Notes under the pieces: generated by a model
The model's database searches: none
Seen by the model: only the letters and a program-made list of their open reading frames with translations
Told to the model about the DNA's origin: nothing
Translations under genes and position numbers: made by a program
Shown here: positions 2,241-19,436 of the stretch, in pieces
Layout of the letters: every line of letters begins with the position of its first letter
Numbering within the stretch: position 1 is the first letter of the stretch
Assembly (NCBI GenBank): GCA_029858565.1
Contig: JAOUEV010000050.1
Coordinates: 1-25,341, forward strand
Reading direction: 5' to 3'
From: Nitrospirota bacterium
Lineage (GTDB): Bacteria; Nitrospirota; UBA9217
Length of the DNA: 25,341 bases

Positions 2241-3446
2241 CTATACATTCGGCGCAACCTGCCTGACATCTCTTTTCTCCCTAAACGTTCTAAGGGGGAA
2301 TATAAGAATTGGAAATACGAATAACAATGAGTAGAGAGACATAAACGAGAAACCCACTCCATGTCCCATTATGTCAATCGCCACACCCGTCACAGAAGGA
2401 CCAAATGCATTTCCTATATTTAGACATGTTGATAATATTCCGAAACCCAACCCCAAACGTTCTGCCGGCATGCTATCAGGCACGAGCGTAAAAATTGCTG
2501 CCGGCACCACACCTGCAGCACAGGTCAGGATTCCTATGCTCAATTCAATAGTCTGGAAATCGTTAAAATAGAAAAAAACAACTGACATTACGACCCCTCC
2601 GATAATTACGAAGGGCGATTTAAACTTAAGTCTATCAATCGCGATCCCAACGATAGGTGGTAAAAAGACAGAGCCTATCATGATAGAACTCGCCATGAAA
2701 TCAGCGGCGTGCTCACTCTTATTCAGGGAAAGAAAGTATCCTTTACTGAAGGCGATAAAGGAGATGCATGCCGCATTGAATAGCAGCCATGACAAGCCCA
2801 GCAGCCATATTTTGCATCCGAATTTTGATCGTTCTTCATTTTGACGCCTTTCTTGAACCAAGCCTGCATTCTCCGAGTTGATCACTACAATAAAGAAAAT
2901 GAAGATTGCTATTGTCAGTACGTTACACAACCAAAGACTGCCTCTCCATCCCGCTGCATGACCGACATATCCCATAATATTCAGAGACAATATGGTCCCT
3001 ATCGGCACGCTTGTGTTCAAAACACCTAGTGCTCTTCCGATTGTTTCAGCGCGGAAATTATTCGCCAGTATCTGTGGCGCCAGCACGGCAAGCGCCATTG
3101 AACCGACACCGGAGATTATTCGACCCACGACCATCATAGGAAAACCGCCACTTACCGCGGTTATTGTATTGCCCATCAGCATTAGTATCGCGCAAGCCGA
3201 TCCTGTCTTCACAGGACCGAGCTTGTCCATTAAAATGCCGCCTGGAATTGAGATGAAGATACCAGGAAGGGCAAAAGCTCCCATGAGGAGGCCTAGTTCA
3301 GAACTGCCTACACTGATTTCCGCTCTTATCAGCTCAAAAATCGGGGGAATGGACTGAAAGAGCAGAACAAAGTCAAGATTGGTTAGATATACCGCTGCAA
3401 GGATAAGCCAACCATTCGTTTTCACCGTTTCAGCAGCTGTAGCCAT
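2241..3446 (-). CDS. MFS transporter (putative exporter)
   Basis: ~400 aa with about 12 hydrophobic segments and MFS motif A-like GILMDKLG / GIAIDRLK. ATG at 3446 has GGTGGA upstream; alternative GTG at 3455. Confidence 0.92.
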   Translation of the reverse strand: MATAAETVKTNGWLILAAVYLTNLDFVLLFQSIPPIFELIRAEISVGSSELGLLMGAFALPGIFISIPGGILMDKLGPVKTGSACAILMLMGNTITAVSGGFPMMVVGRIISGVGSMALAVLAPQILANNFRAETIGRALGVLNTSVPIGTILSLNIMGYVGHAAGWRGSLWLCNVLTIAIFIFFIVVINSENAGLVQERRQNEERSKFGCKIWLLGLSWLLFNAACISFIAFSKGYFLSLNKSEHAADFMASSIMIGSVFLPPIVGIAIDRLKFKSPFVIIGGVVMSVVFFYFNDFQTIELSIGILTCAAGVVPAAIFTLVPDSMPAERLGLGFGILSTCLNIGNAFGPSVTGVAIDIMGHGVGFSFMSLYSLLFVFPILIFPLRTFREKRDVRQVAPNV

Positions 3447-3455
3447 ATGATCCAC

Positions 3456-3782
3456 CTATAGCTTTGAAATCCTTTCTCTTTTCACGCCTTTTTTAGCTAT
3501 CGACTTCATTTCTGCCTGGACCATCGTTTTCTCATACATCAAAGGGTAGATAGTCCTTGTGGTAAATCGGTAGAAAGGCGACTTGATCAGTATCTCACCC
3601 AGTTGGTCGTTTGAATTCACATCAACGATAAAAGCTCCTCCTGCGATACCTGCGAAATGGTAGTGAGCTATCAGTATGCCAATTTTTTTAAGGCTGTTGA
3701 AATAGGCTATGCCATCCCTGGACTTTATCAGTGCTTCTTTCGGGATGACACCCTGGGCCTGTTCTATGACGAGGTAGCGCAT
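3456..3782 (-). CDS. Muconolactone delta-isomerase-like / DUF3303-like small alpha+beta barrel protein
   Basis: Start re-assigned to the ATG at 3782 (GGAGG upstream). Pattern MRYLVI...YHFAGIAGGAFIVDVNSNDQLGEILIKSPFY...IYPL. Confidence 0.6.
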   Translation of the reverse strand: MRYLVIEQAQGVIPKEALIKSRDGIAYFNSLKKIGILIAHYHFAGIAGGAFIVDVNSNDQLGEILIKSPFYRFTTRTIYPLMYEKTMVQAEMKSIAKKGVKRERISKL

Positions 3783-17665: not shown

Positions 17666-18968
17666 CTTTTTTCTTGTCACTGAGCAATATCTGACGATAT
17701 CCTTCAAGGTCAAAAAAGCCACTTCCACTGAGACAAAATACGATAGTCCGTTCTTTGCCTTCCTCTTTAGCCTCCAGGGCGACTTTGATCGCCGCGCTGA
17801 TGGCATGGCACGATTCCGGCGCCGGAAGAATGCCTTCACAAATCGAAAACAGACGGCCAGCTTCAAAGATATCGGTTTGATCGAAAGCCACAGCGTCAAG
17901 AAGGCCTTCGTGGCGCAACAGCCCGATGATCGGCGAGCCGCTGTGTTGCCTGAGGCCGCCGATATGAATTTCCGGCGGGATGAAGTCTTGTCCGAGAGTG
18001 TACGACTTCGTCAATGGCGTGAGACCGGAGGAATCGCCTGCATCATATCGGTACGTCCCCTTCGTTAGCCGAGGTACGGCTGTTGATTCCGCAGCTAAAA
18101 AGGTTATCGATCCGGGTTTTTTCATTTTTTCTTCGAAAAATGGCAGGAAAAATCCGCCCAAATTACTGCCGCCGCCCACGCACGCTATGAGAATGTCCGG
18201 TTTTTCAGAAATCAGCTTCATCTGTTTCATGGTTTCCAGACCGATCACGGTCTGGTGTAGCAGAACATGAGGCAGATTGCTCCCCGAAACGTAAGCGAAC
18301 TTGCCGTTGTAGTTTGCCGCCGTTTCTACTGCTTCGCTTATGCCGGTACCGATTGACCCCGGGTGACCAGGTCTGTCGTCGAGCATTTTTCTGCCTGCGG
18401 CTGTTTTTGTACTTGGAGACGGATAGACATCTCCACCGTACAGTTTCATGTAGTATCGCCTATATAGTTTTTGTTCATAGGATATGCGGGCCATGAAGAT
18501 CTGAGCCTGCAAGTCATAGAGTTTCGCCGATACGCATACCGCAGTTCCCCATTGGCCTGCTCCCGTTTCAGATATGAGCCCTTCGAATTTTTCTTCCTTC
18601 GCATAGAACGCCTGTGCAATAGAGGTATTCAGCTTGAAGCTGCCGGTGGGCAGAAGATCTTCACGCTTGAAAAATATTTTAGCCGGAGTTTTAAGATATT
18701 TTTCGAGATTGACCGCTCTCTGTAGCAGCGTAGGGCGGCCAATCTTAAGATATTTGTCGAGGACATCTTCAGGTATGGTAATCCACTTATTCGGCGCCGC
18801 ATCCTGTTCCTGTAGGCTGCGAGGGCGTATTTTCTTCATTAGTTCTATCGGGGAAAAATCACCTTTCGGATCTTTGGCCTCAGGTAATGGCTTGGGCAGG
18901 GAGGGAAGAACGTTATACCATTGCCTGGGAATATCCTTTACTGGTAGATGAATTTTTAACTGTTTCAT
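17646..18968 (-). CDS. TrpB2-like PLP-dependent enzyme (paralogue A, atypical active site)
   Basis: IPRQWYN, RPTLLQRA, PTGSFKLNT, SETGAGQWG, GGGSN, GILPAPE and LSGSG; ATG at 18968 (alternative GTG at 18977). Confidence 0.92.
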   Translation of the reverse strand: MKQLKIHLPVKDIPRQWYNVLPSLPKPLPEAKDPKGDFSPIELMKKIRPRSLQEQDAAPNKWITIPEDVLDKYLKIGRPTLLQRAVNLEKYLKTPAKIFFKREDLLPTGSFKLNTSIAQAFYAKEEKFEGLISETGAGQWGTAVCVSAKLYDLQAQIFMARISYEQKLYRRYYMKLYGGDVYPSPSTKTAAGRKMLDDRPGHPGSIGTGISEAVETAANYNGKFAYVSGSNLPHVLLHQTVIGLETMKQMKLISEKPDILIACVGGGSNLGGFFLPFFEEKMKKPGSITFLAAESTAVPRLTKGTYRYDAGDSSGLTPLTKSYTLGQDFIPPEIHIGGLRQHSGSPIIGLLRHEGLLDAVAFDQTDIFEAGRLFSICEGILPAPESCHAISAAIKVALEAKEEGKERTIVFCLSGSGFFDLEGYRQILLSDKKKDVYAHA

Positions 18969-19007
18969 ACCTCGCACCTTTCAAGTTTTATTACAACATT
19001 CAAACTG

Positions 19008-19436
19008 TTAATTCTTGATCAGGTTGGTCAATTTGTTCAGCCTGACTAATGTGTCAGTGACTTCTTTGTCGGATAGATCTCGCAGCCAATTATCATTCCA
19101 AATATTCAGATTCCTCATGCAGACATTCACTACATGTAGCCCGGTTTTGGAAATGATCAGTTCCGTATAACGCCTATCCACCTTCGAGTGCTTCATAGCG
19201 ATTAGGCGCTTTTTCAGCAAGAAGCTGACAATCTTAGAAGTATATGATTTGCGGAGCAATAAATCGGAGGCAAGATCCTTTTGACTGACAGGACCACGCT
19301 CTTGAATTTCCTTTAAGACAACAAAGTGTTGTTGACTTAGGCCGCATTTAGCCAACTCTGCATTGCCAACTTGATACAAATAGGATCCAAGCCGAAGAAG
19401 TCTTTTTACTATTTCTATCTTAGCTTTCTTTTTCAT
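19008..19436 (-). CDS. MarR-family transcriptional regulator
   Basis: 142 aa; GLSQQHFVVL...SQKDLA...L.KK.LI...DRR...ISKTG winged-helix pattern. Confidence 0.9.
   Translation of the reverse strand: MKKKAKIEIVKRLLRLGSYLYQVGNAELAKCGLSQQHFVVLKEIQERGPVSQKDLASDLLLRKSYTSKIVSFLLKKRLIAMKHSKVDRRYTELIISKTGLHVVNVCMRNLNIWNDNWLRDLSDKEVTDTLVRLNKLTNLIKN

What the first reader, a model, noticed from the sequence alone, without database searches (positions are those of the whole stretch)
2241..19436. Candidate undescribed BGC: twin atypical TrpB2 enzymes + inositol module + minimal type II KS/CLF/ACP/ligase + UbiD
Seen: 18 co-directional genes, mostly overlapping or abutting, with a MarR gene and promoter at the head and an MFS transporter at the tail. 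Known: each family is familiar, and the hygromycin A cluster likewise combines an inositol-phosphate synthase and inositol dehydrogenase with a CoA ligase, KS and ACP. I know of no characterised cluster that adds two TrpB2 enzymes, two TIM barrels and UbiD. Inference: one pathway makes an exported small molecule joining a cyclitol-derived unit, a serine-derived C3 unit from PLP beta-substitution, and a short ACP-bound acyl extension. The Fe-S genes suggest an anaerobic host.
Basis: partly seen in the sequence, partly recalled or inferred. Interest (0 to 1): 0.92.

Follow-up and report, generated by a model that had tools for sequence, protein, structure and literature searches.

The report
Conserved orphan metabolite cluster in anaerobes
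A 19-gene operon-like block that pairs two unusual tryptophan-synthase-like enzymes with an inositol-phosphate synthase, a small ketosynthase/carrier-protein module and a UbiD decarboxylase is a real, rare and apparently unstudied biosynthetic cluster that also sits in the cultured metal-reducer Geotalea uraniireducens Rf4, where it can be tested.

Summary
All 18 co-directional minus-strand genes at 2241-19436 belong to the families named, and the strongest sigma70-like site of the region lies upstream of marR.

The block is a conserved unit. All 18 genes plus a DUF169 gene recur in near-identical order on metagenome contig L010 at 33-75% identity. L010's proteins are 91-99% identical to Geotalea uraniireducens Rf4 proteins with consecutive accessions ABQ26694-26712. 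A Desulfobacter MAG carries a rearranged third version.

The cluster is rare. An exhaustive profile search of 1.84 billion representatives found only these versions of the ketosynthase partner, and none of 400 other genomes of the host phylum has a close TrpB2b.

In the window it sits in a low-GC stretch of a dsrAB-positive genome, between a transposase and a partial hsdM.

Both TrpB2 copies differ from canonical TrpB2 beside the PLP lysine, and TrpB2b has Gln at the recalled catalytic Glu. The two copies are old paralogues.

I found no paper on the cluster. The product is unknown, and the chemistry is inferred.

The parts
19524..19552 (-). sigma70-like promoter candidate upstream of marR
   Evidence: TTGACA-17-TATAGT, 11 of 12 matches, the best site in 1300-20000; sequence read. 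This is a consensus match only.
19008..19436 (-). MarR-family regulator
   Evidence: PF01047, 38.8 bits. 33% identical to the L010 orthologue, which is 97% identical to Rf4 ABQ26712.
17646..18968 (-). TrpB2a: TrpB-like PLP enzyme, Glu kept, His-to-Phe beside the PLP Lys
   Evidence: NF009057, 592 bits. 68% identical to the L010 orthologue. Motifs GSFKLN and SETGAGQWG. ATG at 18968 with a ribosome-binding site gives the 440-aa database call; the ORF runs up to 18977.
16631..17665 (-). Zn-dependent MDR alcohol dehydrogenase (IolM/threonine-dehydrogenase-like)
   Evidence: ADH_N and ADH_zinc_N. IolM 165 bits, below cut-off. 43% identical to L010, with the alignment starting at residue 79 of the long ORF. 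The nearest solved structures are RspB and threonine dehydrogenase.
15380..16582 (-). inositol-3-phosphate synthase (MIPS)
   Evidence: PF07994 210.8 bits and PF01658 112.9 bits. PDB 7nwr E 1.8e-80 and A. fulgidus MIPS E 2e-67, but the five-membered-cyclitol synthase only 4e-14. It is the only MIPS in the genome. 68% identical to L010.
14089..15387 (-). TrpB2b: TrpB-like PLP enzyme with Gln in place of the conserved Glu
   Evidence: NF009057, 585 bits. TQTGAGQWG aligned to tETGAGQWG of the two solved TrpB2 shown. 74% identical to L010 and 70-71% to the Desulfobacter copy. The Gln variants form one clade, SH-aLRT 97.
13156..13887 (-). small NAD(P)-binding, pyrroline-5-carboxylate-reductase-like oxidoreductase
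   Evidence: NAD_binding_2 and F420_oxidored. The Atlas model matches P5C-reductase-family clusters at TM 0.86. 40% identical to L010.
11919..13163 (-). FabF-like ketosynthase with an intact Cys, His, His, Lys set
   Evidence: Both KS Pfam domains. fabF 352 bits and AmcF 221 bits, both below cut-off. Catalytic residues seen in the alignment. Best solved structure 9s5h_B, E 1.9e-83. 51% identical to L010.
10747..11922 (-). catalytically dead KS-like partner ('CLF')
   Evidence: KS Pfam domains, weak. Cys to Ala/Ala/Gly, His to Asn, His to Glu/Glu/Ser in three carriers. Only two close representative clusters among 1.84 billion. The database start is TTG at 11922, overlapping the KS stop.
10470..10736 (-). 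acyl carrier protein
   Evidence: PP-binding, 42 bits. GLDSI serine motif conserved in L010, and ATG at 10736 follows AGGAGG. 60% identical to L010.
9650..10489 (-). xylose-isomerase-like TIM barrel 1
   Evidence: PF01261, 121.9 bits. Weak hits to fructoselysine 3-epimerase, IolO and IolE, all below cut-off. Nearest solved structure is MJ1311, uncharacterised. 55% identical to L010.
8166..9704 (-). AMP-dependent acyl ligase
   Evidence: AMP-binding and AMP-binding_C. Solved relatives tie at E 1e-31 to 1e-35: malonyl-CoA and oxalyl-CoA synthetases, MenE, 4-coumarate ligase. 45% identical to L010. An alternative start lies at 9662.
7801..8154 (-). CMD (carboxymuconolactone decarboxylase/AhpD-like) family protein
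   Evidence: PF02627, 33 bits. No CxxC motif. 75% identical to L010, where the gene sits after DUF362.
6978..7808 (-). xylose-isomerase-like TIM barrel 2
   Evidence: PF01261, 120.5 bits. Nearest solved structure MJ1311. 48% identical to L010 and 33% to TIM1.
6295..6966 (-). FMN_red flavoprotein with CX2CX2CX5C motif (iron-sulfur-flavoprotein-like)
   Evidence: PF03358, 50.5 bits. The Cys motif is conserved in L010 and ATG at 6966 follows a ribosome-binding site. 56% identical to L010.
4881..6347 (-). UbiD-family (de)carboxylase
   Evidence: Three UbiD Pfam domains. TIGR00148 277 bits, above its cut-off of 245. Nearest solved structures are E. coli UbiD, 6h6v and a phenolic acid decarboxylase. 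UbiX is encoded elsewhere in the genome. 53% identical to L010.
3764..4909 (-). DUF362 domain fused to a 2x[4Fe-4S] ferredoxin domain
   Evidence: PF04015 171 bits plus Fer4 families. Two CX2CX2CX3C motifs conserved in L010. No solved relative for the DUF362 part. 65% identical to L010.
3456..3782 (-). muconolactone-isomerase-like small protein
   Evidence: PF02426 23.8 bits, below cut-off. 58% identical to L010, whose Rf4 orthologue is named a muconolactone isomerase family protein. ATG at 3782 follows GGAGG.
2241..3455 (-). MFS transporter
   Evidence: PF07690, 135 bits. 37% identical to L010.
1510..2235 (+). DUF169 protein, possible 19th member
   Evidence: PF02596, 111.7 bits. A DUF169 gene lies between marR and trpB2a in L010/Rf4, but it is only 27% identical to this one, and this one is on the opposite strand.

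Best explanation
This is one horizontally mobile biosynthetic operon, repressed by its MarR, that makes and exports (through its MFS transporter) a small molecule not yet described.

Inferred route:
1. MIPS cyclises glucose-6-phosphate to inositol-3-phosphate.
2. The Zn-dehydrogenase oxidises a ring hydroxyl to a ketone.
3. The two TIM-barrel enzymes dehydrate, eliminate phosphate from, or epimerise the ring. This gives an enolisable or aromatic polyhydroxy carbocycle.
4. The two TrpB2 paralogues each form a PLP-aminoacrylate from serine or O-phosphoserine and add a nucleophile to it. TrpB2b (Glu replaced by Gln) takes a non-indole carbon nucleophile derived from the cyclitol. TrpB2a (Glu kept) takes a second, more indole- or phenol-like nucleophile.
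5. The P5C-reductase-like enzyme, UbiD (using prFMN from the host's UbiX), the Fe-S flavoprotein and DUF362-ferredoxin carry out imine or redox steps and a (de)carboxylation on the ring.
6. The ligase loads a carboxylic acid onto the ACP, and the KS with its dead partner extends it by one or a few malonyl units.

Shown: gene content, conservation as a unit, rarity, the state of catalytic residues, and the host background. Inferred: every chemical step, the order of steps, and export.
For: 1. Family assignments for all genes.

2. Unit conservation. 18 of 18 genes plus a DUF169 gene recur in near-identical order on L010 at 33-75% identity. L010 proteins are 91-99% identical to G. uraniireducens Rf4 proteins. 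Eleven of 19 map directly to accessions within the consecutive run ABQ26694-26712.

3. A Desulfobacter MAG encodes a b-type TrpB2, an a-type TrpB2 and the third-best KS-partner hit under nearby accessions (MEH0020198, 0020200, 0020188) with the same longest-contig length, 266338 bases.

4. The a/b duplication predates the split of the carriers. The a clade has SH-aLRT 96 and the b clade 100. a-to-a identity is 68%, b-to-b 74%, a-to-b 55%.

5. TrpB2b has Gln where both solved TrpB2 shown in alignment, and 115 of the 120 closest relatives, have Glu. All cluster TrpB2 have Phe where 71 of 120 have His.

6. The host has a canonical trpB elsewhere. Its only MIPS is the cluster's, and UbiX is present. 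So the TrpB2s are not needed for tryptophan synthesis, and the inositol phosphate is probably made for this pathway.

7. The KS triad is intact, its partner is dead, and the ACP serine is present.

8. One strong promoter-like site sits at the head, and most genes overlap.

9. Foreign origin. The cluster is 50% GC against a genome mean of 57% (5th percentile), next to a transposase and a partial hsdM. A close TrpB2b is found in 0 of 400 other genomes of the phylum, and the KS partner in 0 of 3 same-genus genomes.
Against: - No transcript, product or enzyme data exist.
- The cluster has no thioesterase, phosphopantetheinyl transferase, malonyl transferase, inositol monophosphatase or aminotransferase.
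- Both TIM barrels score best against epimerases and isomerases rather than dehydratases, all below curated cut-offs, and their nearest solved relative is uncharacterised.
- The ligase substrate is unresolved.
- No MIPS hit among the 120 listed shares the contig-length fingerprint of the Desulfobacter contig or the other twin-TrpB2 contigs, so the inositol module may not be universal.
- In the Desulfobacter MAG the accession spacing differs: one gene lies between the two TrpB2s, and the KS partner is ten accessions away.
- A 201-nt gap splits the window's block.
- The window's DUF169 is only 27% identical to L010's and lies on the other strand.
- UbiD, CMD, MIase-like, ligase and Fe-S proteins are also typical of anaerobic aromatic catabolism.
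Confidence: 0.6

Rival explanations
1. The aromatic or enolic nucleophile for the TrpB2 enzymes comes from the ketosynthase module, not from inositol. The ligase primes the ACP, and the KS with its partner builds a short poly-beta-keto chain. The MIase-like protein (a ferredoxin-like fold that I recall being shared with small polyketide cyclases) cyclises the chain, and UbiD removes the carboxylate to give a phenol or resorcinol. The inositol module supplies a separate cyclitol moiety or a tailoring substrate.
For: The KS is intact, and the ACP and ligase are present. The UbiD is nearest to phenolic and heteroaromatic acid decarboxylases. The TIM barrels resemble epimerases at least as much as dehydratases. 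The Desulfobacter carrier shows the KS partner together with the TrpB2s, but no close MIPS was seen for it.
Against: No cyclase, aromatase or ketoreductase of known type II systems is present. The KS is FabF-like and falls below every PKS-specific NCBIfam cut-off. The partner lacks the Gln that I recall classical CLFs using for decarboxylative priming. The MIPS is conserved at 68% and is the only one in the host genome, which argues for a central role.
Confidence: 0.15
2. It is a catabolic or detoxification operon for an aromatic, indolic or cyclitol substrate taken up by the MFS transporter. UbiD, the ligase, CMD, the MIase-like protein, the Fe-S proteins and the dehydrogenases would act as in anaerobic aromatic degradation, and the TrpB2 enzymes would scavenge indole.
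For: UbiD, CoA-ligase-like, CMD, MIase-like, Fe-S and flavoprotein families are common in anaerobic aromatic catabolism (family names; the pathway association is recalled). MarR plus MFS also fits inducible catabolism. TrpB2 is described as an indole-scavenging enzyme in the Geobacter genome paper (passage read).
Against: MIPS is a biosynthetic enzyme and has no known catabolic role (my own knowledge). The ACP plus condensing KS and dead partner form a biosynthetic module. Two diverged TrpB2 paralogues, one without the conserved Glu, are not expected for indole salvage. The cluster is extremely rare, unlike common degradation pathways.
Confidence: 0.12
3. The block is two or more unrelated operons that happen to lie side by side: a head operon (marR to trpB2b) and a tail operon (NAD-binding gene to MFS), separated by the 201-nt gap.
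For: There is a 201-nt gap at 13888-14088. The accession spacing in the Desulfobacter MAG differs from the window's order. No transcript data are available.
Against: The same 18 genes stay together in the same order in a second lineage in which proteins have diverged to 33-75% identity, and the gap is closed there. The KS partner and both TrpB2 types co-occur again in a third lineage. No terminator-like excess was seen: 27 sites against 18.8 +/- 5.3 in shuffles.
Confidence: 0.06

Closest known systems
TrpB2 (TrpB-like PLP enzymes, TIGR01415/NF009057; solved as 6hul_B, 4qys_B, 6hte_B)
   Same: Both window enzymes score far above the curated family cut-offs (592 and 585 bits against 366) and align end to end with solved TrpB2 (E 1e-112 to 1e-128). 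The PLP lysine and the GAGQWG loop are present.
   Different: All cluster copies read GSFK instead of GSHK. They belong to a separate clade (SH-aLRT 100) that also differs at Val230 to Asn and Tyr338 to Gln, among other positions. TrpB2b also has Glu134 to Gln, Gly207 to Asn, Val234 to Thr and Gln238 to Asn. They sit in a biosynthetic cluster rather than a trp operon, and the host has a canonical trpB elsewhere.
Engineered TrpB 'tyrosine synthases' (TmTrpB-derived TyrS, carrying E105G)
   Same: A TrpB scaffold in which loss of a Glu accompanies C-C bond formation with phenols or naphthols instead of indole (passages in PMC12909874 and PMC13174591). TrpB2b naturally lacks the Glu of the ETGAGQ motif.
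   Different: Those are laboratory variants of TrpB1 with Gly, not Gln. That E105 of TmTrpB is the Glu of this motif is recalled, not tested here. The primary paper (Almhjell et al. 2024) was not held. No activity is known for TrpB2b.
Cispentacin-type 'type II PKS-like' module (AmcB ACP, AmcF/AmcG KS pair, adenylating loader)
   Same: A stand-alone ACP, a KS with a KS-like partner, and an adenylate-forming enzyme. The NCBIfam AmcF and AmcB models hit the KS (221 bits), the partner (57 bits) and the ACP (38.7 bits).
   Different: All hits are below the curated cut-offs (325 and 80). The KS is closer to FabF (352 bits). The rest of the amc gene set is absent. The roles of AmcG and AmcH are recalled, not tested here.
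Inositol catabolic enzymes of Thermotoga and Bacillus (IolM, IolE, IolO)
   Same: The Zn-dehydrogenase's best NCBIfam hit is scyllo-inosose 3-dehydrogenase IolM. The TIM barrels hit IolO and IolE. This fits enzymes acting on inositol or inosose rings.
   Different: All scores are far below the cut-offs (165 against 450, 64 against 300, 47 against 290). Here they sit beside a MIPS, which implies a biosynthetic direction. No IolG, IolD, IolB, IolC or IolN is present.
Hygromycin A biosynthetic cluster
   Same: At family level it combines a MIPS, an inositol dehydrogenase, a CoA ligase, a KS and an ACP (recalled, not tested here).
   Different: The window's cluster has no aminotransferase, glycosyl or methylenedioxy-bridge genes. 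It adds two TrpB2, two TIM barrels, UbiD, DUF362-ferredoxin, an Fe-S flavoprotein and DUF169. No sequence comparison with hyg genes was possible with these tools.
UbiD-family prFMN (de)carboxylases (E. coli UbiD, 6h6v, phenolic acid decarboxylase 7ae4, PA0254, AnInD)
   Same: A full three-domain UbiD above the TIGR00148 cut-off, E 1e-49 to 1e-51 to solved aromatic and heteroaromatic acid decarboxylases, with UbiX in the host genome.
   Different: It falls below every equivalog cut-off (VdcC 248 against 650; menaquinone decarboxylase 222 against 496; UbiD 185 against 788). The substrate is unknown.

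Membership tests
TrpB2 / TrpB-like PLP enzyme (NF009057, TIGR01415) | Score above the curated family cut-off over the full length | tested here: met
   TrpB2a 592 and 560 bits; TrpB2b 585 and 548 bits; cut-offs 366 and 518.85.
TrpB2 / TrpB-like PLP enzyme | PLP-binding lysine in the G-S-x-K-x-N motif | tested here: met
   GSFKLN (a) and GSFKPN (b), aligned to GSHKIN of solved TrpB2.
TrpB2 / TrpB-like PLP enzyme | Conserved Glu of the E-T-G-A-G-Q motif (recalled as the indole-activating catalytic Glu of TrpB) | tested here: not met
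   This verdict applies to TrpB2b, which has Gln in the window, L010, the Desulfobacter copy and two further proteins (5 of 120 relatives). TrpB2a keeps Glu, so the feature is met for that copy.
TrpB2 / TrpB-like PLP enzyme | His preceding the PLP lysine (GSHK) | tested here: not met
   Phe in both window copies and in 49 of the 120 closest relatives; His in 71 of 120 and in the two solved TrpB2 shown in alignment.
Classical type II PKS minimal system (KS-alpha, CLF, ACP) | KS with the Cys-His-His catalytic triad | tested here: met
   ISACTSS, AAHGTGT and IGHMNGAAG in the KS, conserved in L010.
Classical type II PKS minimal system | CLF with Gln at the active-site Cys position (recalled definition) | tested here: not met
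   Ala, Ala and Gly at that position in the window, L010-type and Desulfobacter proteins. Both His are also lost.
Classical type II PKS minimal system | ACP with a phosphopantetheine-attachment serine | tested here: met
   GLDSI in the window and L010 ACPs; PP-binding 42 bits.
Cispentacin-type KS pair (NF058662 AmcF, NF058660 AmcB) | Score above the curated equivalog cut-off | tested here: not met
   KS 220.7 against 325; partner 56.9 against 325; ACP 38.7 against 80.
Inositol-3-phosphate synthase (MIPS) | Both MIPS Pfam domains above cut-off and close similarity to solved MIPS | tested here: met
   PF07994 210.8 against 25; PF01658 112.9 against 27. 7nwr E 1.8e-80 and 1u1i E 2.1e-67, but the five-membered-cyclitol synthase 6k96 only 4.4e-14. 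45-53% identical to many proteins named inositol-3-phosphate synthase.
Inositol-3-phosphate synthase (MIPS) | Catalytic activity on glucose-6-phosphate | not testable with these tools
   An enzyme assay is needed. The only NCBIfam MIPS equivalog, the actinobacterial mycothiol type, scores 29.7 against 638.
UbiD-family prFMN (de)carboxylase | Family score above cut-off, and a UbiX prenyltransferase available | tested here: met
   TIGR00148 277.2 against 244.85. UbiX (TIGR00421) 207.8 against 108.9 on contig C131.
Iron-sulfur flavoprotein (Isf-like) | FMN_red fold plus a compact CX2CX2CX4-7C motif (motif definition recalled) | tested here: met
   PF03358 50.5 bits. The motifs CTGCFGCDETGKC (window) and CIGCLACDKTGKC (L010) are present.
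Hygromycin A-type cluster | Homologous gene set including the aminocyclitol aminotransferase and the fucofuranose and cinnamate genes (recalled) | not testable with these tools
   No hyg sequences or MIBiG comparison were available. The window's cluster holds no aminotransferase or glycosyltransferase family.

The most novel reading that the evidence does not exclude
The cluster encodes an oxygen-independent route from glucose-6-phosphate to a redox-active hydroxylated indole(ine) or aromatic amino acid.

- MIPS, the dehydrogenase and a TIM-barrel dehydratase give an enolisable cyclohexanedione.
- TrpB2b (Glu replaced by Gln) acts as a natural non-indole C-C bond-forming TrpB and alkylates that ring with the serine-derived aminoacrylate.
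- The amine closes onto the ring ketone. The P5C-reductase-like enzyme and the second dehydratase then process the bicyclic imine to a hydroxy-indoline or hydroxy-indole-2-carboxylate.
- UbiD decarboxylates it, and TrpB2a (Glu kept) converts the resulting hydroxyindole to a hydroxytryptophan-like acid.
- The ligase, ACP and KS module extends that acid.
Probability: 0.07. Interest if true: 0.9.

Novelty: new variant of a known kind. Interest (0 to 1): 0.65.

Why it matters
If the reading holds, this is a new small-molecule pathway of strictly anaerobic metal- and sulfate-reducing bacteria, which are poorly explored for natural products.

It would contain the first natural TrpB-family enzymes specialised for a non-indole nucleophile. 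That chemistry has so far been reached only by directed evolution.

It would also show a new biosynthetic use of inositol-3-phosphate synthase, and a FabF-like KS paired with a fully degenerate partner.

The same cluster sits in the cultured strain Geotalea uraniireducens Rf4 (inferred Gura_2516-2534), so the pathway can be tested directly. It gives a concrete genetic candidate for that organism's unidentified soluble electron shuttle, although this link is speculative.

The wider Phe-type TrpB2 clade (49 of the 120 closest relatives, with source names from several phyla) is also functionally unassigned as far as I could find.

Tried and rejected
- The genome-contig scan with the KS-partner alignment returned only two distant KS loci at 25-26% identity, an Omnitrophota MAG and a Streptomyces. 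It did not recover the Rf4 genome.
- Forty relatives of the host gave only two weak KS matches at 28-29% identity.
- The MIPS protein search found no hit sharing contig-length fingerprints with the other twin-TrpB2 contigs.
- Public runs: no RNA holder listed. Only one sediment-metagenome DNA run, possibly the source, holds the stretch, plus one small-share soil run.
- Rfam: 0 matches in the window.
- Solved-structure searches gave nothing for DUF169 and only the ferredoxin part for DUF362.
- The Atlas search for DUF362 returned only same-family unnamed clusters.
- The ligase and dehydrogenase structure searches did not resolve substrates.
- Almhjell et al. 2024 (PMC11288773) is not held. I know it only from citations in two papers and from recall.
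- The G. metallireducens genome paper mentions trpB2 only as an indole-scavenging gene in trp operons (passage).
- My first locus-tag search used guessed tags. They later proved to lie inside the inferred Gura_2516-2534 range.
- In all, 12 of the 19 inferred tags were searched in full text with 0 papers. Supplementary tables of Geobacter transcriptome papers, which I could not see, may list these genes.
- I considered and rejected three alternatives on gene content: a mycothiol-like thiol pathway (no glycosyltransferase, deacetylase or Cys ligase), di-myo-inositol-phosphate synthesis (no CDP-alcohol transferase), and a menaquinone or futalosine pathway (only sub-cut-off MenE and UbiD hits).
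- I did not run complex prediction, structure prediction or fold search.

Full report
**1. What is in the sequence**

The window is the whole of contig C129 (25341 bases) of a 3.92-Mb, 144-contig genome. In order they are:

- MarR
- a TrpB-like PLP enzyme (TrpB2a)
- a Zn-dependent MDR dehydrogenase (best hit IolM, below cut-off)
- an inositol-3-phosphate synthase (MIPS)
- a second TrpB-like enzyme (TrpB2b)
- a small NAD(P)-binding protein
- a FabF-like KS, a KS-like partner, and an ACP
- a xylose-isomerase-like TIM barrel
- an AMP-dependent ligase
- a CMD-family protein
- a second TIM barrel
- an FMN_red flavoprotein
- UbiD
- DUF362 fused to a two-cluster ferredoxin domain
- a muconolactone-isomerase-like protein
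- an MFS transporter

With starts refined from orthologue alignments and ribosome-binding sites, genes overlap or abut. The KS stop and the partner's TTG start overlap. The exception is one 201-nt gap at 13888-14088. The best sigma70-like site of the 18.7-kb region (TTGACA-17-TATAGT, 11 of 12) lies about 90 nt upstream of marR. Terminator-like sites are not in excess (27 against 18.8 +/- 5.3), and none stands out between genes. Rfam finds nothing.

**2. Is it a unit?**

The KS-like partner is the most cluster-specific gene. A word-based search of 5.8 billion protein clusters gave only one real relative, P0002, at 41% identity.

A metagenome scan with the two-sequence alignment returned L010, part of a 78.8-kb contig. 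L010 carries all 18 genes in almost the same order at 33-75% identity. The only rearrangement is that the CMD gene moves behind DUF362. A DUF169 gene sits between marR and trpB2a. The window also has a DUF169 gene (1510-2235), but it is on the opposite strand next to the MFS gene and only 27% identical.

Exact look-ups show that L010's proteins share at least 90% identity clusters with proteins of Geotalea (Geobacter) uraniireducens Rf4. The accessions are:

- ABQ26694: MFS
- ABQ26695: MIase-like, named Gura_2517
- ABQ26696: CMD
- ABQ26699: flavoprotein
- ABQ26704: KS partner
- ABQ26707: TrpB2b
- ABQ26708: MIPS
- ABQ26709: dehydrogenase
- ABQ26710: TrpB2a
- ABQ26711: DUF169
- ABQ26712: MarR

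Pairwise identities are 91-99%. So 11 of 19 genes map directly into a run of 19 consecutive accessions. The other eight are inferred from the gaps in numbering, and one look-up (the KS ORF) was not in the collection. By inference the Rf4 cluster is Gura_2516-2534.

A third, rearranged carrier is a Desulfobacter sp. MAG. Its b-type TrpB2 (MEH0020198, 70-71% identical to the window's), its a-type TrpB2 (MEH0020200) and a KS-like partner (MEH0020188) all show the same longest-contig length of 266338 bases.

Two more Gln-type TrpB2 proteins exist. P0013 shares a 10657-base contig length with the Phe/Glu-type P0036. P0017 is on an 11319-base contig. I could not fetch these contigs.

**3. Rarity and origin**

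An exhaustive HMMER search of 1.84 billion representatives with the KS-partner profile gave only the two query types above 700 bits. The next hits were 228 bits (the Desulfobacter protein) and 206 bits, followed by fused KS-KS proteins of about 800 residues.

- The KS partner was found in 0 of 3 same-genus genomes. Only 2 of 40 relatives had weak matches, at 28-29% identity.
- No close TrpB2b (E <= 1e-150) was found in 400 other sampled genomes of the phylum.
- The cluster is 50.0% GC in a 57.0% GC genome, about the 5th percentile of 5-kb windows. The far end of the contig is 61% GC.
- It is flanked by a Mutator-family transposase (60-1352) and an hsdM that matches only part of its family model (113 bits against a cut-off of 243).

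This pattern fits horizontal acquisition.

The host encodes dsrA above cut-off with a dsrB-like gene beside it.

**4. The enzymes**

*TrpB2.* Both copies are full-length members of the TrpB2 family and align with solved TrpB2 at E 1e-112 to 1e-128. They depart from the canonical family at active-site motifs.

- All four cluster copies (window and L010) read GSFK where the solved TrpB2 read GSHK.
- The b-type copies read QTGAGQWG where the a-type copies and the solved enzymes read ETGAGQWG.
- Among the 120 closest relatives, 71 are His/Glu, 44 Phe/Glu and 5 Phe/Gln.
- The b-type carries further private changes: Gly207 to Asn, Val234 to Thr, Gln238 to Asn.
- The whole Phe clade differs from canonical TrpB2 at Val230 to Asn and Tyr338 to Gln, among others.

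I built a tree of 64 of the 120 proteins: all 49 Phe-type proteins and every fifth canonical one, 15 of 71. In it:

- the Phe clade is monophyletic (SH-aLRT 100);
- the five Gln proteins form one clade (97);
- the three cluster b-types form one clade (100);
- the three a-types form another (96).

So the duplication is older than the split of the carriers and both copies have been kept. That argues for two different jobs.

That this Glu is the catalytic, indole-activating residue of TrpB is from my recall. So is the point that engineered 'tyrosine synthases' lose it as E105G. The papers I could read say only two things. Tm9D8 E105G acts on phenols and naphthols to make tyrosine derivatives, and E105G is among the TyrS4 mutations (passages).

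The host has a canonical trpB (626 bits) elsewhere.

*MIPS.* It is close to solved bacterial and archaeal MIPS (E 1.8e-80 and 2e-67) and far from the five-membered-cyclitol synthase (4e-14). It is 45-53% identical to many proteins named inositol-3-phosphate synthase. It is the only MIPS in the genome.

*KS module.* The KS keeps Cys, His, His and Lys. Its partner has lost all three triad residues in all three carriers, and it has no Gln at the Cys position. The ACP serine motif is present. NCBIfam's cispentacin AmcF and AmcB models hit but stay below cut-off. The best solved relative of the KS is 9s5h_B.

*Other enzymes.*

- The ligase is equidistant from malonyl-CoA and oxalyl-CoA synthetases, MenE and 4-coumarate ligase.
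- The TIM barrels are nearest to the uncharacterised MJ1311, and weakly to IolO, IolE and sugar epimerases.
- The NAD-binding protein is P5C-reductase-like, TM 0.86 to such models.
- UbiD passes the family cut-off and is nearest to E. coli UbiD, 6h6v and a phenolic acid decarboxylase. UbiX is elsewhere in the genome.
- The flavoprotein has a CX2CX2CX5C motif, and DUF362-ferredoxin has two CX2CX2CX3C motifs. Both are conserved in L010.

**5. Best explanation**

This is one horizontally mobile, MarR-controlled biosynthetic operon for an exported small molecule.

Shown: gene content, conservation as a block across lineages, rarity, the state of catalytic residues, and a host background that makes the MIPS and TrpB2s dedicated to this block.

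Inferred: MIPS, the dehydrogenase and the TIM barrels turn glucose-6-phosphate into an oxidised, dehydrated or epimerised carbocycle. The two TrpB2s add serine-derived alanyl units to carbon or hetero-atom nucleophiles. TrpB2b takes a non-indole nucleophile. The P5C-reductase-like enzyme, UbiD and the Fe-S proteins tailor the ring. The ligase, ACP and KS extend a carboxylate. I put 0.6 on this general reading and much less on any particular order of steps.

Points against it:

- There are no expression or product data.
- No thioesterase, PPTase, malonyl transferase or phosphatase is present.
- The TIM barrels look at least as much like epimerases.
- The ligase substrate is unknown.
- The inositol module is not shown in the Desulfobacter carrier.
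- There is a 201-nt gap.

**6. Rivals**

- (a) The KS module, not inositol, makes the aromatic nucleophile (0.15).
- (b) It is a catabolic or detoxification operon (0.12). MIPS, the ACP and condensing KS, and the twin diverged TrpB2s argue against this.
- (c) It is an accidental juxtaposition of operons (0.06). Conserved synteny at 33-75% protein identity argues against this.

**7. Known or new?**

No listed paper combines TrpB-like with MIPS. No paper on type II PKS in sulfate reducers matches. Nothing came up for uraniireducens together with polyketide, secondary metabolite or the key families. None of 12 of the 19 inferred Gura locus tags occurs in any full text held. Supplementary tables could not be searched. 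antiSMASH and MIBiG could not be run.

The closest known systems resemble it only at family level: TrpB2, the cispentacin-type KS module, the Iol enzymes, the hygromycin A cluster (recalled) and UbiD decarboxylases. I file it as a new variant of a known kind, an orphan biosynthetic gene cluster with an unprecedented combination and atypical TrpB2 enzymes.

**8. Most novel reading**

Tan et al. 2016 (PMC4923279; abstract and passages) show that G. uraniireducens, unlike G. sulfurreducens and G. metallireducens, reduces Fe(III) oxide held inside 12-kDa-cutoff beads. This implies a soluble electron shuttle, and the passages I read do not identify it. A secreted, redox-active polyhydroxy-aromatic or hydroxy-indole compound made without oxygen would fit such a role.

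A chemically coherent route uses every enzyme:

1. An inosose-derived dione is C-alkylated by TrpB2b.
2. The ring closes to a bicyclic imine.
3. The imine is reduced or dehydrated.
4. UbiD decarboxylates the product.
5. TrpB2a carries out a second alkylation.
6. The KS module extends the acid.

This is speculation. I give it a probability of about 0.07, but it is directly testable in a cultured strain.

**9. Verdict**

Interest is 0.65. It stays well above average because of the conserved, very rare architecture, the natural Glu-to-Gln TrpB2, and the cluster's presence in a cultivable model metal reducer.

Noticed in passing
window 60-1352 (-), 19839-21146 (-), 21200-25341: A Mutator-family transposase and an hsdM that matches only part of its family model (113 bits against a cut-off of 243) flank the cluster. 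GC rises from about 0.46-0.50 to 0.61 beyond 21.2 kb, where GH15 and GT4-type genes lie. The contig ends at the transposase, so the island's far border is not seen.
   Followed up: partly
proteins P0015-P0127 (one search list): A large TrpB2 subclade (49 of the 120 closest relatives, SH-aLRT 100) has Phe instead of His before the PLP lysine, plus Asn230 and Gln338 changes. Source names include Clostridia, Bacillota, Ferruginibacter and Candidatus Kentrum/Kentron. I found no function reported for it.
   Followed up: partly
proteins P0013/P0036 (10657-base contig) and P0017 (11319-base contig): Two more Gln-variant TrpB2 proteins exist, one sharing a contig length with a Phe/Glu-type TrpB2. They are possible further carriers of a related cluster. 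Their contigs could not be fetched.
   Followed up: no
one search hit list (P0289-P0308 and others): After the three cluster-type proteins, the nearest relatives of the dead KS partner are about 800-residue proteins with two KS-like stretches (fused KS pairs), and KS domains inside very large synthases.
   Followed up: no
PDB 9s5h chains B and C: The KS's best solved relative is one chain of an entry holding two different KS-like chains (284 and 172 bits), possibly a solved KS heterodimer worth comparing. The entry title gives no pathway.
   Followed up: no
G000:C143:5-244 (L034): A short TrpB-like fragment (48 bits) lies at the very start of another small contig of the same genome.
   Followed up: no
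L010 145-1389 (-) and 20591-21196 (-): In the Rf4-type locus a second, divergently oriented MFS transporter lies upstream of marR, and a cytochrome c assembly protein gene lies downstream of the cluster's MFS gene. Neither is conserved next to the window's cluster.
   Followed up: partly
window 13888-14088: This is the only sizeable intergenic gap of the cluster (201 nt, between trpB2b and the NAD-binding gene). It has no Rfam match and no notable promoter-like or terminator-like site. The equivalent junction in L010 has no gap.
   Followed up: partly
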